Below are positions 13,762 to 55,060 of a stretch of DNA of 64,000 bases, one piece after another. Each line of letters opens with the position of its first letter. Position 1 is the stretch's first letter. Location: NCBI GenBank assembly GCA_000091205.1, contig AP006487.2; one strand, written 5' to 3'. Under the pieces are notes generated by a model. The model made no database searches. It was not told the origin of the DNA and was given only the letters and a program-made list of their open reading frames with translations. A program made the translations under genes and the position numbers. The DNA is from Cyanidioschyzon merolae (Eukaryota).

Positions 13762-13971
13762 AAACTTGCAGCGGAGTTTGCTTTAAGTCAGTTCCCCGAA
13801 AGGCGTCGTGCGCTTAACCTGTTGCACAGGCGCACGTGCCAGCACAAAGTGGCAGCGTTATGGATCGGCGCACACCTGCACATAGCAGCGTTCACGTTTG
13901 TACCCGTGGCTGTGCAGCCCAGTGTTGTTGCAGAGTCTGCGTCCAGGAGAGTGCAAGGAAGCGGCATGGAA

Positions 13972-15345
13972 CCGCACACCGAATGAGGTCTCGTGATCGA
14001 GTCATCTACGAGTTTGACTCCGTTCCCGCTAAACTCTGTCTAATAGAAACATACATCGACTGAGGTCTCGTGATCGATTCATCTACAAGTTTGACTCCGT
14101 TCCCGCTAGACTCTGTCTAATAGAAACGTACATCGACTGAGGTCTCGTGATCGATTCATCCACGAGTTTGACTCCGTTCCCGCTAGACTCTGTCTAATAG
14201 AAACATACACCGACTGAGGTCTCGTGATCGATTCATCTACGAGTTTGACTCCGTTCCCGCTAGACTCTGTCTAATAGAAACATACACCGACTGAGGTCTC
14301 GTGATCGATTCATCCACGAGTTTGACTCCGTTCCCGCTAGACTCTGTTTAATAGAAACAAACATCGACTGAGGTCTCGTGATCGATTCATCCACGAGTTT
14401 GACTCCGTTCCCGCTAAACTCTGTCTAATAGAAACATACACCGACTGAGGTCTCGTGATCGATTCATCCACGAGTTTGACTCCGTTCCCGCTAGACTCTG
14501 TTTAATAGAAACATACATCGACTGAGGTCTCGTGATCGATTCATCCACGAGTTTGACTCCGTTCCCGCTAGACTCTGTCTAATAGAAACATACATCGACT
14601 GAGGTCTCGTGATCGATTCATCCACGAGTTTGACTCCGTTCCCGCTAGACTCTGTTTGATAGAAACATACATCGACTGAGGTCTCGTGATCGATTCATCC
14701 ACGAGTTTGACTCCGTTCCCGCTAGACTCTGTCTAATAGAAACATACACCGACTGAGGTCTCGTGATCGATTCATCCACGAGTTTGACTCCGTTCCCGCT
14801 AGACTCTGTTTAATAGAAACAAACATCGACTGAGGTCTCGTGATCGATTCATCCACGAGTTTGACTCCGTTCCCGCTAGACTCTGTCTAATAGAAACATA
14901 CACCGACTGAGGTCTCGTGATCGATTCATCCACGAGTTTGACTCCGTTCCCGCTAGACTCTGTTTAATAGAAACATACATCGACTGAGGTCTCGTGATCG
15001 ATTCATCCACGAGTTTGACTCCGTTCCCGCTAGACTCTGTCTAATAGAAACATACATCGACTGAGGTCTCGTGATCGATTCATCCACGAGTTTGACTCCG
15101 TTCCCGCTAGACTCTGTTTGATAGAAACATACATCGACTGAGGTCTCGTGATCGATTCATCCACGAGTTTGACTCCGTTCCCGCTAGACTCTGTCTAATA
15201 GAAACATACATCGACTGAGGTCTCGTGATCGATTCATCCACGAGTTTGACTCCGTTCCCGCTAGACTCTGTCTAATAGAAACATACACCGACTGAAGTCT
15301 CGTGATCGATTCATCTACGAGTTTGACTCCGGTCCCGCTAGACTC
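13972..15345. repeat. 77-bp tandem repeat array, ~17.7 units, with 6-unit (462-bp) higher-order periodicity
   Basis: ctgagg unit starts at 14060, 14137 and 14214 give a 77-bp period. Consensus: TGAGGTCTCGTGATCGATTCATCCACGAGTTTGACTCCGTTCCCGCTAGACTCTGTCTAATAGAAACATACATCGAC. Stops occur in all six frames, and the track shows no ORF of 60 aa or more between 14063 and 15184. Confidence 0.97.
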
Positions 15346-15985
15346 CATGTTTCGTACGAGGCGCTCGCGAGGATCACCCGCGTGATACTGGGACGCGCTC
15401 GAATGCGTTGCACTCACAGAGCCTCAGTTCTCACTGGTCCCCGTGGGGCATCGTATTTGGGACGGCTTCTGCCGATGCATCATGAATCTAATCGATATAT
15501 GTGTATCTTCAGTCAGCGTGGTGATTGCATCTGTATCGCTCTGCGAGGTGTCTGGGCTCTCCGCGAATGCGTATGGTGCCCGCATCGAAAGTTTCGACAG
15601 ACGGGGTGCCAGTGGTAAAGTGAGGCTGTAACCAGGCTCTTGGAAAGACGCGTTTATCGAACAGCGCTCTGTTCATGATGTAGAACGTGTAAACACGAAG
15701 CTGCAGTCACGACATGTGCTCTGTGAAAAACAACGAGGGCCCAGGTATGCTCTGGGCCATCGCTTGGAGACAGGCTCCCTCATCCTCCATCTGTTTTGCA
15801 CAGGAGAGAGGCCGCATAGTCAAGAGATCAGCGGCCTGACATGTGTACGATGCAAAGGTAGCAGTCAGAGCCTTCTGATCCACCGGGTGTTTCCAGGACG
15901 CCCGGCGCTGCACCTACGGAGCTCGCGCTTGCGCTGGACTCTAGGGTTCAACACCCGTAGCGCTTGTCTGTTTGCGGTCGGTACT

Positions 15986-24500: not shown

Positions 24501-24559
24501 GGGGTCCTCTGGCGAGAGCATAAAGGAGTAAGCTCATTTTAAAGAAATTAAGGGATGAG

Positions 24560-25215
24560 CCGGGATGTAAACTCCTGAAGGCCGAAATGGAGGAACGTCA
24601 GCGAAGCACTTCGGATATAGAAAAGCCCGGAGCGCTGTTCGAGCAGCAAATGGCACAGAGGGCACGAGTTCGAGGACTCCGTGCACTGGTGCGTTCAACG
24701 AGCTCCAACAAACGCATGGAGTTCGTGAACAGGGACGAAAACGCTGCTATCAATATCAGACGATTTGCGGTGCCAAAAACGGGACCCGATGAGCAGACCC
24801 GATCCAACGTTGTGGGGTCAGCGTCTCAAACTCGAATTGCATATGGATAAACAGAAACAGGTAGCAGCCGGCAGGCAGGCAGGCAGGCCGTGCAACACTG
24901 GAAGGCGGCAGCACGTCGGTATACATTGAGCGTAACGACGCGAAGCGTTTTCGCTCTGATAACCACATAGCCCAGTCGTCGTATGCTTTTTCTGAGAACC
25001 GTTTCTCGTGATAGTGAAACGCATCGCAGTGGTACTGGTTGCGAATACTTCGCCAGGAAGGGTTTAAAAATCTAGTGACAAGCTGGGGCGTCTCTCCACA
25101 CTCTTGAACGGACACCGGGGACGCCTCCAGTTGCAGCGCACAGTCGTATGAGCTGCTGCCGCGTCGCACTGTACTCTTAAACGGACACGTGGGACACCCT
25201 AAGTTGCAGATCGCG
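24560..25215 (+). pseudogene. TnpB/Fanzor-like relic, family I copy A (3' module plus non-coding tail)
   Basis: AQRARVRGLRALVRSTSSNKRMEFVNRDENAAINIRRFAV (D codon 24734-24736). It aligns at nucleotide level with the copies at 42.2, 48.7 and 54.8 kb. Downstream, ~24900-25215 shares diverged blocks with the tail of copy B (cgctct..catagcc; acggacacgtgg). Confidence 0.55.
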
Positions 25216-32400: not shown

Positions 32401-33700
32401 GGCAGAGAAAAAGCACCTGAAACAGAGCCGGATACACGAGACGGTGTACGTCAGGCCGAGCGAACATCAGCTGGCGAGAATATTGACGACCAGAGGATTG
32501 CAAAAGCGAGATTTCAGGAGCAAAATACCTCGATGTACATCCGGGAATGTCCGGTGTTCGCACAGCGCCCAACAGCTTGGTGATCAACGAACCTTTGAGG
32601 GAATCGCGCAGTACTTCGTGTAAACACGGATCTGAAACGCTGAAGACTTGCGATGGAAAACAACAGTGACCATGACAGCGTGTATTTCATCCATGTTTGA
32701 AGCAAGACACTTGTATGAGACGGTTCAGCAGTCCAGAATGGCTGCCATGCCCCATATATACACATGGAACGGTTTTCCTAGAAATTCATGAACGAATATC
32801 CTGCTCCGTAATTCGACTTGACGATGTACCGACATGCAAAGCGGCGTCCTAGGTGCTCTAGCCTAGACGCCCGCCCCCGAAGACCTGCACGGTGTCGCCC
32901 TGCGAGCCTTATTTACCGCACCATACATCCCTGGGATATTTATGATGGCTCCGGCCTTGAAGATCACGCGTTTGTGTGTACGTCAGCAGCGTCGATGCGT
33001 CGCTCTAAAATCCATCTACACAGGTGTTCACGGAATGCTCGGCATTTAAAAGCGAGCCCGCTCAACTTCGTATACAATGTGTCATGCATGTAGACTTGCA
33101 TTTTCGAACGAGATCCGTCATTGGGGCACCAGCTCGAGACTGATCAAGCATCAAGCTTCGTGCACGGTAGACAGGCTGTGCTATGAACGGTTCGGCATTC
33201 GACGCCAGGCGCTGAACCCAGACTTGCGTCACCGTACAGTGCGTTTAGGGTTCCATCAGCAGTGCCTCGTTCTTTGCGTTCGTCCTGCAATTCTCCAGGT
33301 CATAGAAGCGTATCCGCAGCATGAAACTGTTCAGTGTGAGCCGAAGTAGCAACATCCAGCATAGGCATTGAAGCGCGTGTCCTATAGATTCCAAGTGCCT
33401 GTGAGCGCTCCCGCACCGGCGATGCACCTTCGTACGAGGACGCGCTCCATACCAAGTCAGCCGAAACATTTCCTATGAATCAAGTGAGGCAGAACTCGCG
33501 ATTTGTGCACTAATCCAGAAGCACGCTTTCGGGAAAGCTTAGCAACAGAATTCGGGCGATTATGTTTTGGTCTATGGTCGAGTCTTGGCTGGGAATCCCA
33601 GCTACGCAATGGATACCGACGTCAGGGAAAGCGCTAACGCATACTCGGCACTCTACGGATTATATGAACGAGCCGTTGCCTCCAACAGGGAATATGGATG

Positions 33701-34087
33701 TATCCGGCGAGATATAGAGACCTGGTGCGGAATGACTAGTGATTTCATAGGCACCGTTGAGGTAGTCGTCTGCAGGGAACTCCTGCTCGTGTCGCAGAAG
33801 CTGCGTTACCGCCACACCAGCATCGAGTGGTATCCGGCGAGATATAGAGACTTGGTGCGGAATGACTAGTGATTTCATAGGTACCGTTGAGGTAGTCGTC
33901 TGCAGGGAGCTCCTGCTCGTGTCGCAGAAGCTGCGTTACCGCCACACCAGCATCGAGTGGTATCCGGCGAGATATAGAGACTTGGTGCGGAATGACTAGT
34001 GATTTCATAGGTACCGTTGAGGTAGTCGTCTGCAGGGAACTCCTGCTCGTGTCGCAGAAGCTGCGTTACCGCCACACCAGCATCGAG
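33701..34087. repeat. 130-bp tandem repeat, ~3 units
   Basis: tatccggcgagatatagagac starts at 33701, 33831 and 33961. Units are >95% identical by eye. 130 is not a multiple of 3, so the repeated peptide in minus-strand ORFs (MKSLVIPHQVSISRRIPLDAGVAVTQLL..) shifts frame between units. Confidence 0.95.
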
Positions 34088-36087
34088 CAGGCAAGGCCCT
34101 CCCGGGCGATTCCCGGCGCTGTGCGCGAGCCCCGATCGTATGCACGCTGCCGCTGGCTAGCGTCTGAGCCCTGGTACGTTCTCTCCTCCGTCTTGTGCAG
34201 ACGATGCAGCGAGCCGTGCCTAGGATGCTTCAATCAAGTACTGGCCAACTTCGGACCGGGCGCGGGTGCTCGTCAGGGACGACTTTGTGGAAAGCTGGGT
34301 CTCGGCGTTGCAGTGCGTTCCACAGCTGTCAATCGTTGAGTGCTGAGAACCTTTATCAGCCCGCATCTCTGGCGCTGAGAACAGAGAATCGCCAAATCCG
34401 TCGTCTGGTAACGGTGGAGCCAGCGGGCGCGTCTCTTGGACGCACCGTGACAGGGCGCTTCCGCCCGGTTTTGGCGTTGGAACGCGTCGCTGCTGAGGCG
34501 GTCGGTCGGCTGGAAACGCGCAGCTTCACTTACCGCCGAGCTGGATGTACTTCAGGCCTGCTCCAGCTTCTTCTGGATGGAAAAAAAGCTCTAGATGATA
34601 CATAGATTCACCGGTTGGCTCCAGTTCTGCAGAGCGTGTGATGGAAGGCTCTCGCAGAGCTGAGCTGGCCGACATGCTGGCTTGCTGAAACAACTACTGT
34701 ACGCACCAGTGCGGTGTGTTGGTACACTGGCGGAAAAACGTGTGACGATTCGAGATGAAACCAGCAGTGGATAGTTCAGGCTCTCGTGATTAGAATATAC
34801 GCCGTGGGACTTGAAAGTATTTGAGCTCGTCTCCCTCAGGACATGTGCGGCTTCCTGGGTCTGAGGTTTGGAAACGAAGGACCGCAACGATGGGGCATTG
34901 CGCTCTCGAGAAACAAAGCACATTTCATTCGCTACGTTTCCATCATCACGCAGAAACCAGGACGGTAATCAGTACCGAATATCGGGCACTGCGCTTTGGA
35001 AACGACGCAGATTTCGTTGGTTATGTTTCCATTAACACCAAGAAACCATACTGGTCTTTGGTACTGCGGTCGAGGCTATGACACTGCCTGTGGCCCGACA
35101 ATGCCACCATGTTGTCGCCTGGCGGAGCACTTTCCCCTGTGATGCCAATGGATATTTTGTTCTTTTGTGCTGGGCGATCGATGAGCGTACCCAGAGTTCC
35201 CCGCATGCGCAATGATTACCAGCAACTGCAGGAGAGATCTTAGGCATGGTCGGGACGCTTCGGTGTACCTCAACATTCAGAGCAGCTTCTATTTTCGTGC
35301 ATTCGAGCTGAATCGATCCAGCGTACCTTCGGGCGTTGAGTCTCGTGTAGGACGCATGCTGCACCGGTGGACGTGCAGTCGCAGTCGCTTCGATGGCATC
35401 GGCTCGATACTCCGGTGTCTGGTGGAACCTGCGCCGGCGTTCTTCGCAAGCGTGGCCCGAATCAACAGCGAATCCCAAAGAGTCCAGCAAGGACGCGTCC
35501 ACAAATCTAAAGCGTAGCATCCAGTGTTCTACCAAAAAGTGCCAACCTTTGCCTGGTACACGGCGCTGGATCCCAGGAGCAGGCATGAACAGCACCGGCC
35601 TGTTTAAGAGTCCTCGAGTTCTGGCTCCGTGTTCAACCTCATAATGCGCAGCACTAGCGCAACTTTTTTGCCTGCAGCAATGCGAAGGAAAAGCGATAGT
35701 CGCAAATGTGGTATTCTTGAAAGGCCATAATTTTTACCGCATACGCAGATACCGTGAAAGCGTGCTGAGAAGCTATCTCAGGAAATGCACCGGAACACCC
35801 GGAACTCAACTGCAATATTCCCCAGCATATTCTAGTGGAACGTGCATACCAACCAAAATTCGATATCCAAGCAACGACAGGTTGCAGAGCGCAGACGCAC
35901 CAAGTTCCGCGCTTGCCGCACGAGTCTGAATTTGAATGCCACTGATCCGCCCAGCTGGACAACGCATTCGCGCTGCAAACGCTGAGCGAGCTGGTACCGG
36001 TGCCCGCAACGTTTAAACTGTGCTGAGCAGCGCGATACCATATAAATCCACAGCACGCGCGTTGAGCCACTGTCGGTGTCGGCGGTA

Positions 36088-38762: not shown

Positions 38763-40277
38763 CTACGCAATTGCACGTTTACGGCGTACGTATCTTTGCA
38801 CGAGCTCCGCAAACTGCGTCGCTGGACAAGCCCTCTGAATGAACGGATGCGTCAGGAGCCGATCTACGCTCCAACGATCCATGGGTTGCATCGCGAGGCA
38901 GGAGTGTAAAAAGTGGTGAAATTCTGGGCTCCAGCGGGCAGCTTCCGCCAGCTTGGGCGGCCCTCGGGTCGTGATCAGGAACATGGCCCGGAGCGGTGTC
39001 TCTTTGATCCATGGAGGCTCGCCCTCGGCGCATTCTATGGCGAGAATCCCGAGGCTCCAGACGTCAACTTTGTAGTCGTACTCCATGCTTCTGATGAGTT
39101 CGGGCGCCATCCAAAACGGAGTGCCAACGCATGTCGTTCGCTTGTCGCGCTCTGGTGTCAACTGGGCACAATATCCAAAGTCAGCGAGCTTGATGGCCCC
39201 CGACGATTGACCAAGCAGACAGTTATCAGACTTGATATCACGATGGATGCGACGTAGGCGGTGCAGCTGACCGAGCGCAATCAGAACCTCTCGGCAGACA
39301 TAGGCGATCTCTGGCTCCGTCATTCGTTCACCATGCTCTGCCAGATCATAAAGCAAGTCTGTGAGACTGCCCCCGTCCATGTATTCGAGAACAATCCACA
39401 TCGTGTTGCGATGGAGAAACGCCTCGTGAACCTGCACGATGTTCGCGTGGCGAGTGCTATGCATCATGAAGATCTCCTGCTCGAGCGCGCTCATGACCTT
39501 TTCGGACCGAACTTCGACCCTTTTCATCGCAACAATTTTGGTTGGATCGGTTCGAGAGGCTGCCACATAGACAACGCCCATTGCACCCTCGCCCACTTTA
39601 CGCAGGCGCACGTAGACGTCGCTGGGGTCTCGTTCCTGAATGGCGGGAAAGCGTCCCGAGGCCCTCAGTACAGGCTCGCCCCCGGTTTGGCGTGCATCTT
39701 CGGGGCTCGTCTCAGTGAGCAGCTTCGCAGCCGAGTCATCCTGGTGGAGCGCGGTCCGTTCGTTGCGCTCTTTTAAGGCTGCGACTTGGCTGGGATGGTG
39801 CGTTGGCGACGCCGCCCCAGATCGACGCAAATGAAAGTCCATGATATCGCGTACGACTTGCGGATTCGTCAAGACCTCTGTGCGACTGATACCGTTGCCA
39901 ACGAGTAGGTGCTCCCACTCGCGTGGGAGGCCAGAAAATCCCGTCTCAGAGGTGAGGTCGCGGCGCACAGTCACTTTCTTGCGAACCTTGATCGGTGTCC
40001 CTATCTGGGGTGTTTCCTCAGTACTGTCGGATACATCGTTTTGTTTCGGTGCTGTGGGCTTCATATTCGGCTTTCTGGTGCTGGCCGTCCCCGGATCCGT
40101 CGCGTTGTCTGGCGCGTGGCGTGCACAAGACGGCTTGCGCTTCACTCCAGTCGAGGCGTGCGTCGGGGTTCTCGTCAACGCGCTTAAGGCAGCGAGACCC
40201 GCTAACGCGCGCAGTGCGCCTTCAGGTTCAGCAGAGGTCTCCGGGCTCTTGGAGCTGCGCTTCACTCGTGTCTTCAT
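38763..40277 (-). CDS. STE20/PAK-family serine/threonine protein kinase
   Basis: GEGAMGVVYVA, VAMKRV, HRDIKSDNCLL, ADFGYCAQL, GTPFWMAPE, DVWSLGI. The upstream PAK-type box is GLPREWEHLLVGNGISRTEVLTNPQVVRDIMDF. I found no clear CRIB motif. Confidence 0.88.
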   Translation of the reverse strand: MKTRVKRSSKSPETSAEPEGALRALAGLAALSALTRTPTHASTGVKRKPSCARHAPDNATDPGTASTRKPNMKPTAPKQNDVSDSTEETPQIGTPIKVRKKVTVRRDLTSETGFSGLPREWEHLLVGNGISRTEVLTNPQVVRDIMDFHLRRSGAASPTHHPSQVAALKERNERTALHQDDSAAKLLTETSPEDARQTGGEPVLRASGRFPAIQERDPSDVYVRLRKVGEGAMGVVYVAASRTDPTKIVAMKRVEVRSEKVMSALEQEIFMMHSTRHANIVQVHEAFLHRNTMWIVLEYMDGGSLTDLLYDLAEHGERMTEPEIAYVCREVLIALGQLHRLRRIHRDIKSDNCLLGQSSGAIKLADFGYCAQLTPERDKRTTCVGTPFWMAPELIRSMEYDYKVDVWSLGILAIECAEGEPPWIKETPLRAMFLITTRGPPKLAEAARWSPEFHHFLHSCLAMQPMDRWSVDRLLTHPFIQRACPATQFAELVQRYVRRKRAIA

Positions 40278-42009
40278 CCGCAGTCACCGAAAGCCTTCAC
40301 AAACGCAAGCACAATGCGGGCGCTGGAACGCACCACCGGAGGTGCTCAGCTTCCGGAGGATCCCGATACACGTCGCGATGGCGGACACGCGGGCATTCGA
40401 ACAGCGGCCGCCGTCGGCATCGCGCACACCCAGCGCACACACTGCAACGGCCGGGGTGCGGCGGCGCTCATCAGGGACGGATCAGCGCCGGCGTGCTGTC
40501 CTCCGGCGCGGGGCTGTCGACAGCCGTAGAGCGCCCGCCGTTCCCGCGGCTGGAGAGGCGGCGGCGCTCGCAGTTCCCGCTGCACCCTGGTGCGAGTCCG
40601 GGAGCCTGCACCTTCAGGTTGCAGCACTGAGGGCGGTGGGGATCGGCGTGGGCGCGCCCAGCTCCACAGCATGGCAGGTCTCTGCATGGAGTGCATTTGC
40701 ACAAGAAAGTCGCATCGAGGACTCTGCGTATCTGGACTGCATGTGCGCTTTGCCGATACACGTATACCAGAATAAGACGGAACAGGTCCACGCAGCGAAC
40801 ACGGGCGTGCCTAATAAAGTTTTGATCGCTTCCCGTAAGAGTCAACACAAGATTTTGTGCGTATTTTTGTGACTTGTTATTTTTATTGCTCTTTTTTTGC
40901 TGAATTTCAATGTGCTGGTCTCTAATGTGTCTGCAGCTCCGTTTGTCAGCAGTCGAAGAATGCTGATGGCAGCGTTCTCCTCCCGAGTTCGCAGCATTCG
41001 ATTCTCATTCACGCATTTCGAACAGGCAGGCTGAAGTTGCGATCTCGGCTGCGCTTGTCATGATCATATCCTTTGTAGACAGCCTCAGTGCGCCCTTTGC
41101 AGCATGAACCTTGGCCACGGTCAGTGATTACCGTACGTGCACGACACGACACCTCTTCCGAAAAATGCCCTGTGCCGCACCAAGGAATGCTTCGCTGATC
41201 GGTGTGCGCGTTTGACTGGTACAGAGGGCCCGATGTGTTCCCTGTATTCGTTTTCGCGCCCGGTGCCGTGTTCTCCGATCATGGGCTTGCTCATGGCGAT
41301 CCTTCCAGGGTGTACGCTATCCCCTGCACGCACACGCTGTAACATTGGATGGGCGATTTTTTTGGAACGCGATCTTGTTCATGATGGAGCGGTTGGCGGA
41401 AGGGAATTCCAGGATGGTGAGCAATAGAAAAAATTTAGAGTCGTTTATGTTCAGTTCCTAGAACGCAGTGACATACTCTCTACTCTGAGTAATCGCCGCA
41501 ATGACTGGTGTGCAGCACGAGTCGTTGCTTCCGCTGTGAGCGGCGAGGCTGGATATCGGCGTCATGGCTGGTGCCTGCTCGCAGACGGGTGCTGCGATGG
41601 TCACCTGGCACCGCTTATGGCACCCAGAGAACCGCTTCTGCTGCACGTTCGAACAGACGACGGAGCCAGCGGACCTCTGTGACGACCTCGAAAGCTAGCC
41701 AGGTATTCCAGCTCCTTTGGCGGTGTTCCGCGACGGTTTCATCTCGGCAATGATGCAGCGGATGCACCTCGAGGACAATGGAAACCTACGCTTATCGAAG
41801 TCTGAGCGCGTCTTGTCGCAACGAACTCCAGAGACTGGCATGTTTCGCGTCTCGCATGATACGCTGGCCTCGTTTTAATGTTGCACCTCATTTGTGTTCC
41901 GCTTGCAGGTGCGTGTCATCAAGTGCTTCCTCGCGGGTTATAGCGGACGTGTTCAAAGAGCGTCCATTTTCAAAAATAAACTATCCTAGGGAGATGTGTA
42001 TGTATGAAA

Positions 42010-42690
42010 ATCGGGGATCCTGATGTGCTAGTGTCGCCGGTTTCAACAGAAAAAACGAAAAATTCTCTTCTCACCGACCATCGAGCGAAGGAGAGCAAGT
42101 TTTATGAAAAAGTAGAAAAAGAGAGGAACGGCGGGTGAAAAGTTTTTGTATGCCTGATGTGACGATTACGAGACTGTAACGGGACAGAGGGCACACTGAC
42201 GAAGGCGCCTTGCATTGATGAGTCCCATCAGAGGCAGCAAACGCATGGAATTCGTGAACAGAGACTTGAACTCCGCCATCAAAATCAGACCATTTGTGTT
42301 ACAAAAGGCGAGGCGCGCGGAACTTACGTTAGCGAAAGGTTTGGGACAGCCTCTCAGGTTCGAAGTGTACACGGGACAAATTGAAACCGATATCTGGTTG
42401 CTGGTCAGAAAAAGGCTTCGAGGCGCCTGTGAGTGCGTATCATTTTCCCCTGTCGAGCCGACGCTCTCTGTGGTGCGGCATAGCCGTTCTGTCTCCGTGC
42501 AAGGACCGCATCGGCCCTGTAGACGCTATCGCCGACGCTCTGGGCATGCACTCGGCGCACGATAGAACGTACGGAACGACCATTATATCCGAGAGAAAGT
42601 ATGGGTTACGGAACGTGGAAGTAAGGCGTGGAATGAGGGATACCTTACAGCGCGCTGATGACGAGCGCAGAATCCGAGAACGCTCGCCAC
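42010..42690 (+). pseudogene. TnpB/Fanzor-like relic, family I copy B (5'-truncated, plus tail forming the left palindrome arm)
   Basis: SKRMEFVNRDLNSAIKIR (D codon 42263-42265). Upstream, ..ccatcgagcgaagg.. aligns with copies C and D. Downstream conserved block LVRKRLRGACECV. The tail from ~42452 is the left arm of the palindrome. Confidence 0.5.
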
Positions 42691-42987
42691 AGCAACCACT
42701 TTGGCATTTTTTCACTGACAAAACGTTTACTTAGGCCAGCGTTCTCCGATTATGCGCTTTTTTCTTTTCTTTCTTTTTTTTCAGTGCGAGGTGAGGTATC
42801 CATCAACCCCCTACCTCCATGTTACATTACCTATACTTCGTCTCGGATATTCTGGTCGTTTCATACGTCCTATCGTGTGTGCCTAGTACCTGCCGTTCCG
42901 TATTCGCGTCTGCGCTTGAACCGCTGGAGCAGATAGCTCATAGGGCTAAAACAGCTTTTCTATACCACAGAGGGCGTCGGCTCGAGG
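42452..42987. repeat. Large imperfect palindrome (inverted duplication): arms ~42452-42688 and ~42734-42987, 45-bp centre
   Basis: The reverse complement of 42795-42878 matches 42558-42644 (cacgatag.acgta..gaacgacca..atatccgaga..aagtat.ggt...gggatacc). It extends inward (gcgcagaatccgagaacgctcgcc 42665-42688 vs revcomp of 42734-42757) and outward (ctgtcgagccgacgctctctgtggt ~42450-42474 vs revcomp of 42961-42987). It also shows as YFLSDIMVVPYVLSC / YFVSDILVVSYVLSC in opposite-strand ORFs. Confidence 0.85.
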
Positions 42988-42989
42988 TG

Positions 42990-45900
42990 TGCTTCATCCG
43001 ACGTAGAATCGGGTCTCGTCGTCAGTTTGTGCTCGTACAGTCTGCGGATGCAGGCTTGCCTTCGCTGCACGACACGCTGGAGAAACTTGGTTGTTAGGAT
43101 GAATTCTGGGAGCTGCCTCTCTCCTTCGTGATCATGCATGGAATGCATTGTTGTCGGTTGGCTATGCGGATTTGTGCTTGACACCCACTACAGAAGGAAG
43201 GCGTAGAGAGCACTAAACCCGTGTGCGCATCCGATCCGCTGGACCTTCCGCCTAGAAGGTAGCACGTGAGTTTGTTGGCCACTAATGAGCACTGAGGATC
43301 TGTTAGCGAACCATCAGTTGCCAGTGCTGCACTCAGAGTGAGTGTCCGGCCTTCGACTATCACGGTGTTGCCGAGCTGCTGCTGTCCTTCGAGGAGCTCG
43401 CTGCGCTCCTGCTTCTAGCGCGGCCACTGTAGGCCTAAATATGTCAGCGTCTCGGGGATTTCGTCTCGATAGCAGGTACAGTGTGACTCCCAGTGCGATT
43501 CCAGGGTTCCTATCCGGCTTAGAGCCGGTGCTGGTAGCCAGGAGCCACCAACGCTGATTTTGGCGAGCCACTGGGTACCTCGAGCAAGTCCCGGGAATTC
43601 CAGCGCCTCCCACCAGTAATTGCATGTGTATGCTAGGTTGTAGTTCCGGTATAGAGTCAAGCCGGCGTTACTCGCGCGACTGGTACTGTATCTACGTTCC
43701 CATATTGTTGTTCGGACCGTTCGCTTGAGGCGACGGGAGAATTCTATATTCCTGGGGAATGATTGGGTAGCGTGTTTTCGCCTAAGAGGCGCTTCAGCCA
43801 AATCTGCGCTGATTTCATCCAAGTGATCTTGCGGTGCGTTGGGGTCTGCATGGATATCCGACTGAACCAGGTGTTCATGGTTGGCCCTTTGCCCCATATG
43901 CGTGCCCGGCAGCCTGCTGCTATCGCCTCTGTCGAGGGTATTTGGAGTTCAAGTCCGAGTGCCAGCAGGTTGGTTGCTCTGCTCTGCATTGAGCATCCAA
44001 CTACAACGAGTCGCATTGCCCTGTTGGCGGCTGTCTGCAGACGCGAGGCATTTGTGTGCTTCATGCCGCACCATTCAGCACCACAGGTCGCAGGCTGGAT
44101 GATACATATCCTTAGTGCGCTGGTACGGATTGCTAAGGGGATAGAGGGGTCGGATAAGAATGGGCATGCGATCGCTGTACGTCTATGCATCTTGGCGATC
44201 ATCTCGTTAACGTGTGCCTTTTCGTCGAGCGTCGGCGTGAGACAGACCCTAGGTAGCGATATTTTTCCACGATTGGAATTTCCTGATTCTGCAACCGCCA
44301 CGAGCGATTGCGAATGCTCTGCGAGTCTCCATGGATGGCCATGACGCCGCACTTCGATGCTCCTATGCTCATCTCCCAGCGATCGGCCCAGGCGCTGACT
44401 TGTTCCATGCTAGCCGCAAGCGTTTCCGGGGCGGGTGCCAACAGCACGACATCGTCCGCAAATAGAAGGCCTGCGAGGCGGTTCCCATATGGGCGCTCCC
44501 CATCGGGCATCTCCACAGTCTATCCACGGCACCTCAAGCCCGTATTGTCTGTAGTTGTTAAGCAGATCGTTGATGAAGATGTTGAAAAGGAGCGGGGATG
44601 CAGGATCGCCCTGTCGCAGTCCACGGCGGATTCTTATCGAAGGGGTTCTTGAGCCGTCGCCTAGTCGGATGCGCATCCACGAGTCTGCATAGAGCGCACG
44701 GAAGAACGCTAAGCACTTTGCGGAGACTCCGGCTCGTTCCATCTTCATAAATGGAGCCTCATGCGGGAACGTGTCAAAGGCCTTTTGGAAGTCGACGAAG
44801 CATACGTAAGTTGGTTGTTGGTCGCTAATGAAGCGACGTTGCACCACTTCAATGAGGGTCAGGGCATGGTTCATGCACTCCTCGTGGCTCCGGAATCCAG
44901 CCTGTTCTGGGGCGAAGAACTTGCGTTCCTGGAGGCCGCTGTGGATACGGTTCGTGAGCATGGCGCGAAGTAGCTTCATGATTGACGGGATGAGGCGCAT
45001 AGTCCGGTAGATGTTCATGTCTGTGTGTGTGTGGGAGTCCTTTTTGAGGATCGGTACGACCTCGACAGCCCTCCGTACATCTGGGATGTACGCTTCTTCA
45101 AACATGCGTTGAATGAGCTCCAGAAGGCGTTTGCCTAAGATTGTGTCAGGTTCATCTGGTATCGATGGTGTCCCTGTTGTCCCGTCTTTTGGGGTCGCCA
45201 GTTTCATCCACTCCGCAGGGATACCGTCGATGCCAGGTGTTTTGCGATTGCTTGAGCATAGCAGAGTCCGAACAGATTCAGGCCAGAAAATTGGGTCGTT
45301 CCATTCCGGTACCGGGTCGAGGCGCGGTAGTTCTGCAGCATATCGGTGCCAATAGATTCGGTCTTAGCAGTGCCCAGTTGCGTCTTCATGTAATTCTGTG
45401 CCGTGGTCCGTCCAGGCCTCATTCACTGAGGCACGCTCCGTCCTCAGCGCTTCCTTTTAACAGTTGGTGTGAGCCCCAAGCACTTTCTTGGTGGGTCCAG
45501 TCTCGATCGGATGTAGCCTGGGGTTTCATCTTCGTTGGTGCTCTTCAGCATAGATTCCGCCAGGGAGGCCATTTTGCGGTTTCGATCCTCTCGTTTGTCT
45601 TCTCTGGAAAGTTTCTTCGTTCTTTTGATAGCTTCCTCATGTTGCGCCTGTAGCGCCGGTAGCGCTGCCTTCGCTTCCTTGTCTCCGGCGTTGGCGCGTA
45701 TGGCGGTGCGGTTGACAATCTTGTTGAGTCGGTGGCATTCATGAATCCGAGTTTTGGTACGTCGTTTGAGGTACTGCGGCTTGCTACTGTTGTGTTCAGG
45801 TGCAAGCAGTCCCAATTTTCTGGCAATCTTCTGATTCCCATCTACAAACTCGCGTGCCAATTGGTCTGAAGATTTGTATTCACGGCTTTTCGGATCTTCA

Positions 45901-46950
45901 GCGCTGTGAGCAGGTGCCTGGGATTGGCGACGGCTTTCTTGAGTTCCAGCTGGGGTGCCCTTTCGGGGGATACCTTGTGATGGGCTCGTTTGGGAGTTCT
46001 TCTTTCTATTCTTCTGTTTTTTCTTGCTGGTCTACTTCTTCTTCGGGCTCTTTCCTGAGCTGCTTTCTCTGGTTATTTTGCATTTAAGGGGATCATGAGG
46101 TTTCTGTGTCTCTTTCTCCGTACCTCGTTGGGTCTCTTTTCCAATTGTAGAGTCCTCGACTTGTATCAGTTCTTCATTACTGTACTGGTAATTCGATATC
46201 TCGTGGTTAAATACCGAGGCGATCCCGCTAATATTCCATGATGCGAAACCTATCGAGTCGTAGCGCATAAGGGAATAGGAGTAACGCTGCGGTACTCCAG
46301 AGATACGTTGTCGATTTAGACGCAGCTTCCACAGGGTGTGTGAGAGCACATGCCACCATTGCCTCCTGCATTCCAGTCGTTCACTGAGTGTCTGCCGCAG
46401 CGCTAGCGTAGAATCAGATGTACATTAGTCAAGGTCGATTCGAATGCGAACTTTGTCTTTCCGGACGCGTGAAGCTACCCTCAACCATTGGGAAAAGTCT
46501 GCAAACCACCATTTCAGCGGCTTTGTATCCGCTCCCCAAACACATAGGCGGGCAAGTCGCTTATTCCACTTTCGACAGTGAGCATACTGCCAGCTGTCTT
46601 CCAAAGTATCCGCCGAGATTGTTTCCAAAGTTGAGGTAGGTACTCAAGGTAGAAGGTGAAACTGAGCCCGAATTCAGGGATGGATCCAGTATTTGTGCCC
46701 GAACCTGCAGCGTTGTTTCGGGAGCAGCGGATGACTGCGCTCAGAATTATCGTCATCATTCTCTGCTACTGCCTACGCCCCTCCGTTCGTTGCGGTCAAG
46801 GCCCCTGGCGTGGACTTCCTTCGCAGTCGCTCAAGCACCCCGCGTTAACCCACTTTCAGAGGTTCTCCGGAAAGACTAGACCCCTTAGGCGGACGTGGTT
46901 TGTGGGGCTTTTAAGATAGTGGTTCCTTGATAAATAGTTTGCGACTAGTT
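42990..46950 (-). mobile_element. Non-LTR (LINE-type) retrotransposon relic: APE-like endonuclease plus reverse transcriptase, multiply frameshifted
   Basis: RT blocks on the minus strand: PGIDGIPAEWMKL, NIYR.., FDTFPHE, RRGLRQGDPASPLLFNIFINDL, GLLFADDVVLLA (D codon 44456-44454), YLG, PATCGAEWCG. C-terminal Cys motif: CTCYRDEIPETLTYLGLQWPR. Endonuclease-like fragments at 46.0-46.9 kb (FYLEYLPQLWKQSRRILW, VWGADTKP, NHEISNYQ). The 3' limit is uncertain. Confidence 0.8.
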
Positions 46951-47159
46951 TGCATCGCGCTCGGTGAGCGCACCTCGGAGATCGGGCAGGCATGAGACGC
47001 TACGCGCATGCCACTGTTGAAGGGAAACACGTGACCTTGATCAATAGCGTGTTGTTCTGCTGTAAAAGTCGGATTCCCGTTGAGGGCGTAGCAAAGTATA
47101 GTTTTCAGTTCATTTCTGTTTCAACCCTCAAGTAAAAATACTCGAGTGTTTTTTCGCAG

Positions 47160-47167
47160 TATATAAG
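47160..47167 (+). promoter_or_regulatory. TATA-like box (TATATAAG) ~210 bp upstream of the family I copy C start codon
   Basis: Direct reading, inside an A/T-rich block (47100-47340) that is unusual for this window. No functional evidence. Confidence 0.2.
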
Positions 47168-47376
47168 AGAAGCGTTCAAAGAGCATTCTTTTTAAAAAAA
47201 CTAAAAAAAGGAAAAGTATGTAGGAGCAAGTCCACGATCCTGGAGGCCCACTGTCGCAGGCTGCCAGAAAGAAAACAAAAAACAGTGCCGAGTCCAGAAG
47301 AACAGGGAGAGAGAAGAAGAACCGAAGAGGGGAGGCCCTACGTCGAAGGTGGCAAGAAAGACGACTGTACAACGAG

Positions 47377-48980
47377 ATGGTGGTGAAAGCCTTTCTTCTT
47401 GGACATATCAAGGATCCCTACAGGGAAAAGTTGCGAGACGCTATCGAAAAACGTGTCGACTCGTATTCCGAGAGTATTATCAAGGCGTCGTCAGGGCTGA
47501 TGCATTTGGCGAGGGAGATGTATCGCGACATGGCGCACATGGAAACAGTCGAGATTCCGGACGAGTTTCTCGACATGACCTTTATTTGTCAGCTAATGCT
47601 TGGTACAGCGGAAACGCGGAAGGAAAATGTGCTAGTGCACGCCCTCCACGAAGAACATACCTTTTACAGCTTCAATGGTACTCGATACAAGGTGACGGAG
47701 ATATTTACATCTATGGGGCGATGAAGTACCTCACGAATCTGAAGAACCATTTGACAATGAACCTCGAACGTTTCACGGTACGCGCCGTGTGTGCACTCTA
47801 CCCGGGCCTATCTCGCAAAGGAAAATGGGCGATTATCAATGGCATCACGAAAGATCGTAAGCATGAAGATGAGACGGATTTCGTTGACAAGAAGGCGTCA
47901 AACGAGAGCACGAATGAAGCTTCTGTAATCCGTGCTGCTATTCAAGAGCACCGTGCAATCCTGGGACTGGATTATCCAGCAGAAAAGATATCAGAGTTGA
48001 AAAAAGATAAGGAAACATACGATCGCCTCATTCTACGGTATTTCGTGTTTCTGGACCAAGAACTCGAACGCGAGGCGGAGATGAAGGTGAATAGGGGAAA
48101 AATGAAGAGTGGGAGAGACGGAAGGCTGTCCTAACGGGGAAGCGCTTCAACGTGGTTCCATTGTGCAACATCAAGTCAGATTTTGTGACCATCGGCTCCG
48201 GCGTCCTTTACGGCATCATGAAGCAGATCAGTCCGGAGTTCAGTGTCAGCAGGGAGGACTTCACCGGCGAAAACCGGGAGACGTACTGCAAGAGTATCTT
48301 CGATTTCAAACGTCTGAGAGTGAGCAAGCAAAAGTTGTTTACTGGGATGATCGTAACCGATGGAGTAGAATTGTGTGCAAACTATCGGCGGTTGAAGAGA
48401 GATCGGCCAGTCCCTCCCTCGGCTGCGCCCGTGACGAAGGATCAAGAAAACAAAGAGGTGTATCCTGCGACGCAGGAGGTGGAGGATAGAGACCTTGTCG
48501 TTGACGTGACCAAGGATGAAGAAAGGGAGGAGGCGGATCTTGCGACGCAGGAGGTGCAGGATTACGACCTTGTCGTAGGCGTGGACCCTGGGAATACGAA
48601 TGTCCTAACCATCGCAGCACCGAAGCGTGCGGAAGATGGAAAAGTGCCAGCGGAATCCTGAAGATATACAAAAGTACGGACCGCTGACGGAAGGGCGAAT
48701 GGAAAGGAGAGCGAAAGTTCGAGGATTGCTTGCATCAGTAAGTACAACCAGTGATGGCAAGAAACGGATGGAGTTTGTGAAGCGAGGTTTTAATGCCGCA
48801 ATCAATCTACGGAGATGTGCGGTGCTAGAGAATAAACCTCCAGACTGGACAAGAAGGAACCTTGTTGGACAATCTCTCAAAGGTGAACTATATGAGAGAA
48901 AGCTGGAAGCAGTAGTGGGTAGCCAGTCCAAAAAGACGGGGGGGGGGCGTCTGCACGTCAGCTGGAGACGATTTGTCTAA
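47377..48980 (+). pseudogene. TnpB/Fanzor-like gene, family I copy C: longest copy, N-terminal ~400 codons retained, three frame changes and an internal deletion of the RuvC-II/zinc-finger segment
   Basis: Four consecutive ORFs in frames 1,0,2,0: 47377-47724, ~47700-48134, 48152-48661, 48627-48980. RuvC-I-like [17 protein letters not shown] (gac 48584-48586). RuvC-III position KRMEFVKRGFNAAINLRR (G instead of D, ~48786) lies only ~67 codons later. A 60-bp internal duplication gives [14 protein letters not shown] / [15 protein letters not shown]10 homopolymer at 48938-48947. Confidence 0.6.
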
Positions 48981-49117
48981 GGCGCGTTCGCCGCCATTGC
49001 TGCGTACTGCCGGCGTCGTTCGACTTCGAACGGCGTTCGTGACCGAAGCTCATCCGCGGATCCAGCTGCACGCCGCTGCTTCATTCAGGACGCGTTGTAT
49101 AACAACGTCAGGGAACC

Positions 49118-49438
49118 ATGACGAAAGGAACATCTTCCAAGGGTCGCCGTCACGGCAAATCACATACACTCTGTATCCGTTGTGGACGACGATCGTACCA
49201 TATCCAGAAAAGTACCTGTGCGAGCTGCGGGTACCCGTCGCCGCGAAAGCGGACTTACAACTGGAGTTTGAAGAGCAAGCGGCGACGCACTACAGGAACT
49301 GGGCGCATGCGGTACTTGAAGACGGTTGCTAGACGGTTTCGAAACGGGTTCCGCGAAGAGAACACTCGTAAGGCGATAAAGAGGACAGTGGCTGCCGCTC
49401 CCGCACAGGAGAGCGGCCAGGAAGCAGCGAGCTCTTGA
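49118..49438 (+). CDS. RPL37: 60S ribosomal protein L37 (eL37)
   Basis: [68 protein letters not shown] is the canonical eL37 sequence with its C4 zinc ribbon. Confidence 0.95.
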
Positions 49439-54350: not shown

Positions 54351-54569
54351 AGGTAGTGCAAAGAACACACCGTACCGGTAAGTCGCGCGTGCCGTGGAGG
54401 CGAACGCTGTCGTTCATTCGGCAGCGCTCGAGGCTGGCACCGACTTGCCCGACTAGATGCACTACTTTTTGCTCTTTGACCACAGTGAGATTGATTAGTC
54501 AGGTGTGTGTCATCAAATGCCTTATTCGGTTTATAGCAGATGGGCTGCAAAGTGCGTTCATTTAGAGAA

Positions 54570-55060
54570 ATAGAGAATATAAGATATAGGTATGGAGATT
54601 GAAGTCGAGGATCCTGGATTGCCTCTGTCCACGGGTGTCGGAAAAGAACGGGAATTTTCTCATCTTTTCGACGATCGAGCGAAGAAGACCAAGAAGAGGG
54701 GAGATGGACCACAAAAATGTGTTTGCCCGACGGGGCGATGACGAGAATCTAATCGCACAGAGGGCACGAGTTCTGGCAATCCCTGCATTGATGCGTTGCA
54801 CCAGATGAACTGCATAGAACGGCTCGTGAACGGAGACTTCGACGTCACAAGCAATATCAGGAGATGTGCGGTGCTGAAAACGAGACTCGCGGAGCTGACG
54901 CGAACTAAATTCGAGTGGCAGCCTCTAATACCCCCAGTGTGCCTGGATAAAAACCGCAACCGATGGCAGTCGGCGGATAGAAAAAGACTGGGCGGTGTCT
55001 GCGCGTGGGCAGCTATATGTACTCTCGATGGTGGTAAAACATTGCACGTTTTATAAATCA
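54570..55060 (+). pseudogene. TnpB/Fanzor-like relic, family I copy D (most degraded)
   Basis: ILDCLCPRVSEKNGNFLIFSTIERRR aligns with [21 protein letters not shown] of copy C. AQRARVLAIPALMRCT then CIERLVNGDFDVTSNIRRCAVLK (gac 54835-54837) aligns with KRMEFVNRDENAAINIRRCAVL. The tail block is RKRLGGVCAW. Confidence 0.45.

What the first reader, a model, noticed from the sequence alone, without database searches (positions are those of the whole stretch)
42990..46950. Near full-length but multiply frameshifted LINE-type retrotransposon, and a 7-kb TE island
The minus strand carries endonuclease-like fragments (46.0-46.9 kb) and a complete set of RT blocks, including GLLFADDVVLLA and the C-terminal CxC..ET..H..C motif. 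These are spread over at least 7 frame-shifted ORFs. Together with family I copies B and C and the palindrome, this forms a continuous TE island from ~42.0 to 49.0 kb. Neighbouring host genes in this genome are separated by only 0.1-1 kb. Family I copies are 5'-truncated to different extents (A < B ~ D < C) while sharing one 3' end. That pattern is typical of LINE-mediated, target-primed reverse-transcription copies. It raises the possibility that the nuclease module was propagated in trans by such an RT. I see no poly(A) tails to support this.
Basis: partly seen in the sequence, partly recalled or inferred. Interest (0 to 1): 0.4.

Follow-up and report, generated by a model that had tools for sequence, protein, structure and literature searches.

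The report
Dead LINE beside Fanzor transposons
This is an old, broken copy of the red alga Cyanidioschyzon merolae's known LINE retrotransposon, wedged between copies of its known Fanzor repeat, and the idea that the LINE copied those Fanzor repeats does not hold up.

Summary
The window is C. merolae 10D chromosome 5. The minus strand at 42,707-46,951 holds one near-full-length non-LTR retrotransposon (4.25 kb). It has RT with FADD, a degenerate C-terminal CCHC motif and a short oligo(A) end. Four frameshifts and three stops break it. It belongs to the single LINE family already catalogued in this genome.

The "endonuclease fragments" are not supported. Only about 40 N-terminal residues look APE-like, and about 175 residues of the domain are missing in every copy examined.

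"Family I" is the known Fanzor1 repeat CMe-1A. In 79 related loci it has sharp hairpin termini at both ends, no poly(A), no target-site duplications and no LINE-like 3' end. Copies B, C and D are internal-deletion derivatives, not 5' truncations.

The element that does share the LINE's 3' end is a ~655-nt unit that fits Repbase TE-N2_CMe by size and position. A fragment of it forms the "palindrome".

One unexpected result emerged. LINE-type ends abut the Fanzor left terminus in 22 of 29 cases, against 3 of 66 at the right terminus. This is unexplained.

The 41.88-49.04 kb TE island is real. Overall the finding is ordinary and mostly already known.

The parts
42707..46951 (-). Non-LTR (LINE) retrotransposon, near full-length, dead copy (4,245 nt)
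   Evidence: The ends were defined by comparison with independent copies in metagenome loci L001-L004, L014, L017, L023/L033, L063 and L078. Flanks diverge before AAACTAGTCGC and after ...GTCAGTGAAAAAA. Other copies carry about 25-45 nt more A-rich 5' leader.
43094..46268 (-). Remains of the single long ORF (1,055 codons in the reconstructed family ORF, starting MRYDSIGFASWN)
   Evidence: Consensus of 5 copies with two indel corrections is open for 1,055 codons. The window copy has 4 frameshifts (45,459; 44,509; 44,250; 43,768), stops at 46,034, 45,366 and 43,417, and one 6-nt in-frame insertion at 45,033.
46143..46241 (-). Vestige of the APE endonuclease N-terminus (SWNISGI ... 26 aa ... VEDS), followed by K/S-rich low-complexity sequence
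   Evidence: Read from the sequence. No Pfam APE hit and no PDB hit. Relative L085 has a genuine Exo_endo_phos ORF upstream of its RT (E=8e-8). Collinear comparison shows about 175 residues missing here. tblastn with APE domains gives only noise.
44247..45045 (-). Reverse transcriptase domain; FADD catalytic box at 44,462-44,451
   Evidence: Pfam RVT_1. The best solved relatives are human L1 ORF2p (E=1e-18) and R2 proteins (E about 4e-16).
44509..44509 (-). +1-nt frameshift just before the FADD box, shared with other family members
   Evidence: The same insertion is in L001 and L004. The C. merolae 'retroelement, alive' proteins P0005/P0006 end at the same residues (WIDCGDAR). It is absent in L002/L003 and P0001-P0004.
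43418..43483 (-). Degenerate C-terminal CCHC zinc-knuckle motif (HCTCYRDEIPETLTYLGLQWPR)
   Evidence: Translation. The family consensus is CPCCRDETPETLTHLGLQCPRW. The distant relative in L005 has CPLCDHHVSETVEHLLIDCPRW.
42707..42730 (-). Conserved 3'-terminal motif GTAAACGTTTTGTCAGTG plus oligo(A)6, the true 3' end of the LINE
   Evidence: Conserved at the end of all LINE copies and of the TE-N2-like units, and followed by unrelated flanks.
42766..42792 (-). Internal A-rich tract in the 3' UTR (not the terminus)
   Evidence: Alignment of copies continues about 60 nt past it in the window, L002, L004, L017 and L078.
42453..42706 (+). 5'-truncated LINE-tail / TE-N2-like fragment, joined tail-to-tail to the LINE: the 'palindrome' partner
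   Evidence: nhmmer with the TE-N2-like HMM matches positions 461-655, E=1e-40. Inverted repeats I1-I4. 76% identity to the LINE 3' UTR over about 243 aligned nt. It lacks the last 9 nt (GTGAAAAAA), so the LINE sits at its very tail.
41876..42430 (+). Fanzor1/CMe-1A copy B: internal-deletion derivative (HMM 133-361 at 41,876-42,122 plus HMM 2328-2581 at 42,178-42,430)
   Evidence: nhmmer with a 28-copy full-length element HMM, E=3e-22 and 5e-22.
46952..49039 (+). Fanzor1/CMe-1A copy C: both termini present, 515-nt internal deletion (removes the RuvC-II/zinc-finger region), frameshifted
   Evidence: nhmmer matches HMM 2-1748 and 2264-2667. tblastn with P0165 shows residues 503-674 missing. The left-end hairpin TCGCGCTCGGTGAGCGC starts at 46,955 and the right-end hairpin ...CGTCGTTCGACTTCGAACGGCGTT ends at 49,037 by direct reading (the HMM alignment ends at 49,039).

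Best explanation
The feature is an ancient, inactivated, essentially full-length copy of the one non-LTR retrotransposon family of Cyanidioschyzon merolae. It was made by target-primed reverse transcription and has since decayed neutrally.

It lies in a nest of other repeats. On its 3' side it is joined tail-to-tail to an older, 5'-truncated LINE-tail (TE-N2-like) fragment and to a deletion derivative of the Fanzor1 repeat CMe-1A (copy B). On its 5' side it directly abuts the left terminus of a second CMe-1A element (copy C).

The Fanzor elements are not retrocopies made by this LINE. They behave as DNA-type elements with fixed hairpin-bearing ends and internal-deletion derivatives.

The LINE family has lost almost all of its APE endonuclease domain, yet it spread after that loss. 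Its non-autonomous partner is the ~655-nt TE-N2-like unit, which carries the same 3' end.

Shown here: identity, boundaries, mutations, family relationships, termini of both families, and the 3'-end sharing. Inferred: the order of insertions, TPRT as the mechanism, and dependence of the TE-N2-like unit on the LINE RT.
For: - Organism: five window ORFs are identical to C. merolae 10D proteins on the 528,682-bp chromosome.
- RT identity and relatives. The closest proteins are C. merolae 'retroelement, alive' at 85-87% identity.
- Relatives carry an APE ORF upstream of RT, so the lineage is of the APE type.
- LINE hallmarks: a conserved 3'-terminal motif plus oligo(A) followed by unrelated flanks; 5'-truncated copies sharing the 3' end (LINE at q142 and q2990; TE-N2-like from HMM 342, 352, 441, 461, 486, 524); no LTR-like direct repeats around the element.
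- Disabling mutations.
- Fanzor elements: sharp boundaries at both ends in depth profiles over 79 loci; a 3' hairpin terminus without A-tail; a 5' hairpin terminus; internal-deletion structure of copies B, C and D; no TSDs.
- Literature: 26 non-LTR elements and 253 copies of a 3.2-kb WSV486-like repeat (PMC1955436). CMe-1A is described as a Fanzor1 family of ~150 copies, ~3 kb, without TIRs, whose 5' 635 bp equals TE-N2_CMe (PMC3627910).
Against: - The RT clade could not be assigned. No Repbase or Dfam references were available, and PDB scores for L1 (70 bits) and R2 (61 bits) are too close to discriminate.
- No TSD flanks the LINE in the window; only a 3-nt TGC overlap is present.
- The APE vestige is a motif-level resemblance without statistical support.
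- Fanzor identity of family I could not be shown by Pfam (PF07282, E=0.23), by a PDB profile search or by structure prediction (pLDDT 32). It rests on motifs (GADPGNTN; DEFRTSYTHHELGC...EKCQ; NRDFNAAINI) and on the literature.
- The related loci come from hot-spring metagenomes of relatives, not from the C. merolae genome itself. They were also selected for intact Fanzor C-termini.
Confidence: 0.85

Rival explanations
1. One reading: family I (the Fanzor repeat) copies are 5'-truncated retrocopies made in trans by the LINE reverse transcriptase.
For: - Copy A (24,555-24,920) is 3'-only.
- LINE-tail-like sequence lies 23 nt downstream of copy B in the window and 12 nt downstream of the Fanzor copy in L001.
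Against: - The Fanzor element's 3' end is a conserved hairpin terminus with no A-tail and no LINE similarity in about 66 independent right ends.
- Only 3 of 66 right ends have any LINE-type sequence nearby.
- The 5' end is equally sharp.
- Copies B, C and D are internal deletions.
- No TSDs were found.
Confidence: 0.03
2. The LINE/Fanzor adjacency is mechanistic. The endonuclease-poor LINE and its TE-N2-like partner integrate preferentially at the left-end boundary of Fanzor elements, using a nick or break made there as primer for reverse transcription. One candidate is a free 3'-OH on the flank left by the element's own transposition machinery.
For: - LINE-type sequence directly abuts the Fanzor left terminus in 22 of 29 junction-deduplicated cases, against 3 of 66 right termini (Fisher p=1e-12). 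Counting distinct junction types gives 7 of 14 against 3 of 66, p=1e-4.
- Different LINE 5'-truncation points (q1, about 45 nt upstream of q1, q142, q2990) all meet the same terminus. That is expected if separate insertions occurred at one point.
- Both orientations occur, with a bias to head-to-head (18 against 4).
- In L017 a truncated LINE sits between two left ends.
- The whole family lacks most of APE.
Against: - Loci were chosen for containing Fanzor elements, and many junctions are inherited rather than independent. The long form with the TE-N2-like unit is one homologous junction in more than 10 loci.
- No transposase that would nick the left end is known in this genome.
- Fanzor/TnpB nucleases are thought to cut empty donor sites, not occupied ones (general knowledge of TnpB biology).
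- The independence of the L017 and L063 junctions is doubtful.
- The genome itself was not surveyed.
Confidence: 0.2
3. The adjacency is passive. In a compact genome only insertions into other repeats survive, and a few chance LINE/Fanzor composites were then copied as units. Copying could occur by segmental duplication, or because Fanzor-element mobilisation can start upstream of its usual left end, as in Helitron-like families with a fixed 3' end and variable 5' ends.
For: - The same LINE/left-end junction occurs with different right-hand flanks (window vs L057; L014 vs L076).
- Left ends come with at least three alternative upstream modules: the TE-N2-like unit, the LINE, and a shared GGGTGTCGGACACGTGTCC... 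extension.
- The right end is the most uniform boundary.
- Host genes in the window are packed. The island fills most of the 8.8 kb between the kinase gene at 38,763-40,277 and L37 at 49,118.
Against: - It does not explain why several different LINE truncation points meet exactly the same terminus.
- It does not explain why the right end is spared.
- The outer boundary of the long form coincides exactly with the 3' end of the TE-N2-like unit in every locus. Variable upstream initiation would not produce that.
Confidence: 0.4

Closest known systems
C. merolae class I elements ('retroelement, alive/dead'; Matsuzaki 2004, Nozaki 2007, PMC1955436)
   Same: Same family. The window's RT is 85-87% identical to proteins annotated 'retroelement, alive' in strain 10D and shares their frameshift position. 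The paper reports 26 copies, all closest to non-LTR elements.
   Different: This copy has no annotated protein. The 'alive' ORFs (348 aa) stop before the FADD box, so they are not intact RTs either.
APE-type LINEs such as human L1 ORF2p (PDB 8SXT, 8C8J)
   Same: RT core with FADD. The linker upstream of RT aligns with L1 ORF2p residues 307-737 (E=1e-18). There is a C-terminal cysteine-histidine motif, an A-run at the 3' end and 5'-truncated copies. Relatives keep an APE domain.
   Different: About 175 residues of APE are missing in all copies. No ORF1 was detected. The tail is only 5-9 A's after a conserved 3' motif, which is 'stringent'-type 3'-end recognition rather than poly(A) recognition (my inference). 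The clade is not assigned.
Fanzor1 family CMe-1A and TE-N2_CMe (Bao & Jurka 2013, PMC3627910)
   Same: Family I matches CMe-1A in organism, size (2.7-3.3 kb), abundance, lack of TIRs and TSDs, and the D...[TS][TS]..Zn..RD motif. A ~650-nt unit at the 5' end of the long form matches the description of TE-N2_CMe.
   Different: The paper left both elements unclassified. Here the TE-N2-like unit lies in reverse orientation to Fanzor and shares its last ~545 nt with the LINE. The Fanzor element shows subterminal hairpins at both ends. Identity with the Repbase consensus could not be checked.
LINE/SINE pairs with shared 3' tails (stringent-type recognition; Ohshima & Okada, from my own knowledge)
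   Same: The TE-N2-like unit and the LINE share the 3' region and the terminal 20-nt motif. The short unit shows variable 5' truncation with a common 3' end.
   Different: No tRNA, 5S or 7SL head was identified. The first ~110 nt have no detectable source. It may simply be a LINE deletion derivative.
Reported association of Fanzor1c with LINEs (Jiang et al. 2023, PMC10530073)
   Same: [quoted passage not shown]
   Different: That was a neighbourhood statistic. Here the association is at nucleotide resolution, with the left terminus only. Whether the C. merolae family is Fanzor1c is unknown.

Membership tests
Non-LTR retrotransposon (LINE) | LINE-type reverse transcriptase with the catalytic F/YADD box | tested here: met
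   Pfam RVT_1 E=2e-28 on the stitched ORF. The best PDB matches are L1 ORF2p and R2. FADD lies at 44,462-44,451.
Non-LTR retrotransposon (LINE) | Endonuclease domain (APE at the N-terminus, or restriction-like after the CCHC motif) | tested here: not met
   No Pfam or PDB match and tblastn with relatives' APE gives noise. Only a ~40-residue N-terminal vestige remains. Relatives L085 and L086 do have APE, so this is a loss within an APE lineage.
Non-LTR retrotransposon (LINE) | Defined 3' end with A-rich tail, variable 5' truncation among copies, no LTRs | tested here: met
Non-LTR retrotransposon (LINE) | Target-site duplication flanking the insertion | tested here: inconclusive
   Only a 3-nt TGC overlap is present in the window. 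The copies are old and nested.
L1 clade specifically | RT phylogenetic placement, ORF1 and the CX3CX7HX4C motif | not testable with these tools
   No clade reference set was available. PDB bit scores for L1 (70) and R2 (61) do not discriminate. The motif here is CxCC-x7-ET-x2-H-x4-C.
R2-like (restriction-like endonuclease) LINEs | PD-(D/E)xK nuclease domain downstream of the CCHC motif, and N-terminal zinc-finger/Myb | tested here: not met
   No such domain by Pfam on the 1,107-residue reconstruction. Relatives carry APE instead.
LINE-mobilised retrocopies (claimed for family I) | Common 3' end with A-tail or LINE-derived tail, TSDs, and 5' truncation | tested here: not met
   Hairpin terminus without A-tail. 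3 of 66 right ends lie near LINE-type sequence. No TSDs. The copies are internal deletions, not truncations.
Fanzor1 / TnpB-like (family I) | RuvC triad with D ... E ... [TS][TS]-x-x-zinc finger ... RD motif | tested here: inconclusive
   The motifs are visible in family proteins. Pfam PF07282 reaches only E=0.23, PDB gives nothing and the model has pLDDT 32. Identification rests on PMC3627910 and PMC1955436.
Non-autonomous LINE partner (TE-N2-like unit) | 3' region and terminus shared with the autonomous LINE; 5'-truncated copies | tested here: met
   nhmmer HMM positions 182-725 match window 43,261-42,704, E=3e-65. Shared terminal motif. Truncated copies.

The most novel reading that the evidence does not exclude
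A LINE family that has lost its own endonuclease, together with its short TE-N2-like partner, integrates specifically at the left-end boundary of Fanzor (TnpB-like) transposons. It would use a nick or break created there as the primer for reverse transcription. A retrotransposon would then depend on DNA ends made by an RNA-guided-nuclease-carrying DNA transposon. That dependence would explain the 22/29 against 3/66 asymmetry and the origin of the 'long form' of CMe-1A.
Probability: 0.15. Interest if true: 0.65.

Novelty: already known. Interest (0 to 1): 0.3.

Why it matters
As a finding it adds little. The C. merolae genome papers already count this LINE family and the Fanzor repeat, and Repbase-based work already names CMe-1A and TE-N2_CMe.

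Four points are useful.
1. The attractive idea that a LINE spread a Fanzor nuclease gene can be set aside.
2. The unclassified TE-N2_CMe-like unit can probably be filed as a LINE-tail-bearing non-autonomous retroposon.
3. The 'alive' retroelement annotations in strain 10D appear to lack the catalytic box.
4. The LINE family spread with only a vestigial endonuclease, and its ends are found against one specific terminus of Fanzor elements. If that association is mechanistic, it would be a new kind of dependence between a retrotransposon and a DNA transposon. It would also bear on how Fanzor elements, whose mobility mechanism is unknown, are cut.

Tried and rejected
- Pfam on each minus-strand ORF fragment at 46.0-46.9 kb gave nothing.
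- A PDB search with the N-terminal 257 residues gave only noise.
- Exact look-ups of C. merolae proteins in the contig index failed. The organism was identified through cluster look-up instead.
- RT clade assignment was not possible. Literature searches gave no clade name for the C. merolae LINE and no reference set was available.
- A codon-phase test for an ORF1 in the 5' 680 nt gave no signal anywhere, not even in the RT. This fits neutral decay.
- I first thought the Fanzor copies carried a LINE tail at their 3' end. The 79-locus survey showed this to be separate TE-N2-like fragments, and rare.
- I thought the TE-N2-like unit also had the LINE's 5' end. Local alignment scores no better than shuffles, so this was rejected.
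- I thought stand-alone TE-N2-like units include the Fanzor left-end 70 nt. They do not.
- I tested whether the long form (TE-N2-like unit plus Fanzor) is a retroposon flanked by TSDs. None were found.
- Orthology of L002 and L057 with the window locus was tested. No host genes are shared.
- Fanzor identity was tested with a PDB profile, NCBIfam, Pfam at E<=10, AlphaFold and a second profile search. All were uninformative.
- Rfam gave no hit over the whole window.
- No telomere repeats are present in the window.
Full report
**Where the window comes from.** Five ORFs in the window are identical, residue for residue, to Cyanidioschyzon merolae 10D proteins on a 528,682-bp contig. They include L37 (BAM79382, at 49,118-49,438), a BSD-domain protein, DapA, a phosphatase and a dimethyladenosine transferase. 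The genome paper lists chromosome 5 at exactly 528,682 bp (PMC1955436). This is a fully sequenced and well-annotated genome. Its authors reported 26 class I elements, all closest to non-LTR retrotransposons. They also reported 253 copies of a 3.2-kb repeat whose truncated ORF weakly resembles WSV486 of white spot syndrome virus.

**The LINE.**
- *RT evidence.* The minus strand carries a reverse transcriptase. Pfam RVT_1 gives E=3e-19 and 3e-6 on two adjoining ORFs and 2e-28 on the stitched protein.
- *Closest proteins.* The closest database proteins are C. merolae 'retroelement, alive' entries at 85-87% identity, plus many hot-spring metagenome proteins.
- *Boundaries.* I fetched four metagenome contigs with related copies and later found more inside 79 Fanzor-bearing loci. 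Aligning them fixes the boundaries of the window copy.
  - The 5' end is AAACTAGTCGCAAAC at 46,951. Other copies have 25-45 nt more A-rich leader.
  - The 3' end is ...GTAAACGTTTTGTCAGTGAAAAAA at 42,707. Beyond it the flanks of the window, L004, L017 and L078 are unrelated.
  - The A-rich tract at 42,792-42,766 is internal to the 3' UTR.
- *The ORF.* A consensus of five copies, corrected at two indels using the copies that are open there, gives a single 1,055-codon ORF starting MRYDSIGFASWN.
- *Damage in this copy.* Against that ORF the window copy is 94.6% identical. It carries four frameshifting indels (45,459; 44,509; 44,250; 43,768), three premature stops (46,034; 45,366; 43,417) and one in-frame 6-nt insertion.
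- *Catalytic and C-terminal motifs.* The FADD box is intact at 44,462-44,451. The C-terminal zinc-knuckle is degenerate in this copy (CTCYRDEIPETLTYLGLQW). The family consensus is CPCCRDETPETLTHLGLQCPRW.

**The endonuclease claim.**
- Nothing in 46.0-46.9 kb matches an endonuclease by Pfam, even at E<=10, or by PDB search.
- More distant relatives (29-38% identity) do have a genuine APE ORF directly upstream of their RT. L085 gives Exo_endo_phos E=8e-8, and L086 gives Exo_endo_phos_2 E=3e-8. The lineage is therefore of the APE type.
- Using those APE sequences as tblastn queries against the 5' 1.8 kb of four copies gives only non-collinear noise.
- What remains is an N-terminal stretch, SWNISGI followed 26 residues later by VEDS. 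It has the spacing of APE motifs I and II and is followed by lysine/serine-rich low complexity.
- The collinear linker match to L085 implies that about 175 residues are missing.
- Every copy I could align has this same structure. The family therefore multiplied after losing most of its endonuclease.
- Region 46,951-46,269 is 5' UTR. No ORF1 signal was found.

**A shared frameshift.** The +1 insertion at 44,509 is also in L001 and L004. The two C. merolae 'alive' proteins end at exactly the same residues, WIDCGDAR, before the FADD box. Other metagenome copies (L002, L003, P0001-P0004) read through. The 'intact RT ORFs' of strain 10D therefore lack the catalytic motif.

**What family I is.**
- Its translation has GVDPGNTN, and in fuller relatives DEFRTSYTHHELGC...EKCQ and NRDFNAAINI. 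This is the D...[TS][TS]-x-x-Zn...RD pattern by which Bao & Jurka defined Fanzor.
- They list one Fanzor1 family in C. merolae, CMe-1A. It has ~150 copies, is ~3 kb, and has no TIRs and no determinable TSDs. Its 5' 635 bp equals another repeat, TE-N2_CMe.
- My attempts to prove Fanzor membership independently failed. Pfam PF07282 reached only E=0.23, PDB gave nothing, and the AlphaFold model had pLDDT 32. That identification therefore rests on motifs and literature.

**Testing the LINE-in-trans idea.** I collected 79 metagenome loci containing the Fanzor C-terminus.
- Depth-of-homology profiles show sharp boundaries on both sides of the element.
- The 3' terminus is ...GCCACTACTGTACAC..GGCGTCGTTCGACTTTCGAACGGCGTT, a hairpin followed by unrelated flanks with no A-run.
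- The 5' terminus is TCGCGCTCGGTGAGCGCACC..., also a hairpin.
- An HMM built from 28 full-length copies shows the following in the window.
  - Copy C (46,952-49,039) has both termini and a 515-nt internal deletion.
  - Copies B (41,876-42,122 plus 42,178-42,430) and D (54,498-54,732 plus 54,730-55,008) keep 5' and 3' parts around nearly identical internal deletions.
  - Only copy A (24,555-24,920) is 3'-only.
- No target-site duplications flank short or long forms.

Both conditions hold.

**The palindrome and the LINE's real partner.**
- Window 42,453-42,706 on the plus strand is 76% identical to the reverse complement of the LINE's 3' UTR. It meets the LINE tail-to-tail with a 9-nt spacer.
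- It is a fragment of a ~655-nt unit that recurs in the metagenome loci. Its last ~545 nt are homologous to the LINE's 3' end (nhmmer E=3e-65).
- That unit ends in the same GTAAACGTTTTGTCAnnG(A)5-9 and occurs with many different 5' truncation points.
- Its first ~110 nt have no detectable relation to the LINE.
- In size and position it fits TE-N2_CMe. It forms the 5' extension of the 'long form' of the Fanzor element, in reverse orientation.
- I read it as the LINE's non-autonomous partner. So something is plausibly propagated in trans by this RT, but it is not the nuclease gene.

**The island.** From 41,876 to 49,039 the sequence is continuous repeat:
- Fanzor copy B
- a 22-nt gap
- the LINE-tail fragment
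- the LINE
- Fanzor copy C

It fills most of the 8.8 kb between a PAK-type kinase gene (38,763-40,277) and L37.

**An unexpected pattern.**
- In the window the LINE's 5' end touches the Fanzor left terminus directly (...CTAGTTTGCA|TCGCGCTCGG).
- Across all loci, LINE-type sequence lies against the left terminus in 22 of 29 junction-deduplicated cases, but against the right terminus in only 3 of 66 (Fisher p=1e-12).
- Eighteen are head-to-head, including LINEs truncated at q142 and q2990. Four have the LINE-type A-tail against the terminus.
- Many of these junctions are inherited. The long form is one homologous junction, and the loci were selected for Fanzor content.
- A cautious count is about seven junction types at the left end (p=1e-4).
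- The same junction also occurs with different right-hand flanks, so composites are copied as units.
- I could not decide between three explanations: targeted integration of an endonuclease-poor LINE at a nick or break at the Fanzor left end, hitch-hiking of upstream sequence when the Fanzor element moves, and survival bias plus duplication.
- A published survey already notes a Fanzor1c-LINE association at the neighbourhood level (PMC10530073).

**Verdict.** The mechanistic suggestion about family I is refuted. The left-end association and the vestigial endonuclease are worth a genome-wide check, and I rate the mechanistic reading as unlikely to moderately likely.

Noticed in passing
window 44509; proteins P0005/P0006 (C. 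merolae 10D): The proteins annotated 'retroelement, alive' (348 aa) end at WIDCGDAR, the same +1 frameshift as the window copy and before the FADD catalytic box. The 'intact RT ORFs' reported for strain 10D therefore appear to be catalytically incomplete.
   Followed up: partly
loci L006-L084 and window 46,951/46,955: LINE-type ends abut the left (5') terminus of Fanzor elements in 22 of 29 cases, against 3 of 66 at the right terminus. In L017 a 1.2-kb truncated LINE sits between two Fanzor left ends.
   Followed up: partly
window 41,876-42,430 and 54,498-55,008: Fanzor copies B and D share almost identical internal-deletion breakpoints (HMM 361/2328 and 374/2306). This suggests a ~0.5-kb MITE-like derivative subfamily that keeps both end regions.
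   Followed up: no
   Followed up: no
window 13,889-15,420: Tandem array of about 20 copies of a 77-nt unit at 94-95% identity, in a region of lower G+C (0.50).
   Followed up: no
window 33,700-34,089: Three tandem copies of a 130-nt unit at 97-98% identity.
   Followed up: no
window 48,430-48,579: A 75-nt in-frame tandem duplication inside the Fanzor ORF. The number of these acidic repeat units varies among family members (about five in P0165).
   Followed up: no
loci L008, L011, L034, L043, L049, L050: A third kind of shared sequence (GGGTGTCGGACACGTGTCC...GCGTCTCGCGCGGTGCACGCA) lies directly upstream of the Fanzor left terminus in several loci. The left end therefore comes with at least three alternative upstream modules.
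   Followed up: no
loci L023 and L033: A full-length LINE 5' end begins about 45-60 nt after a Fanzor right terminus, in the same orientation. This is one of only three right-end associations.
   Followed up: no
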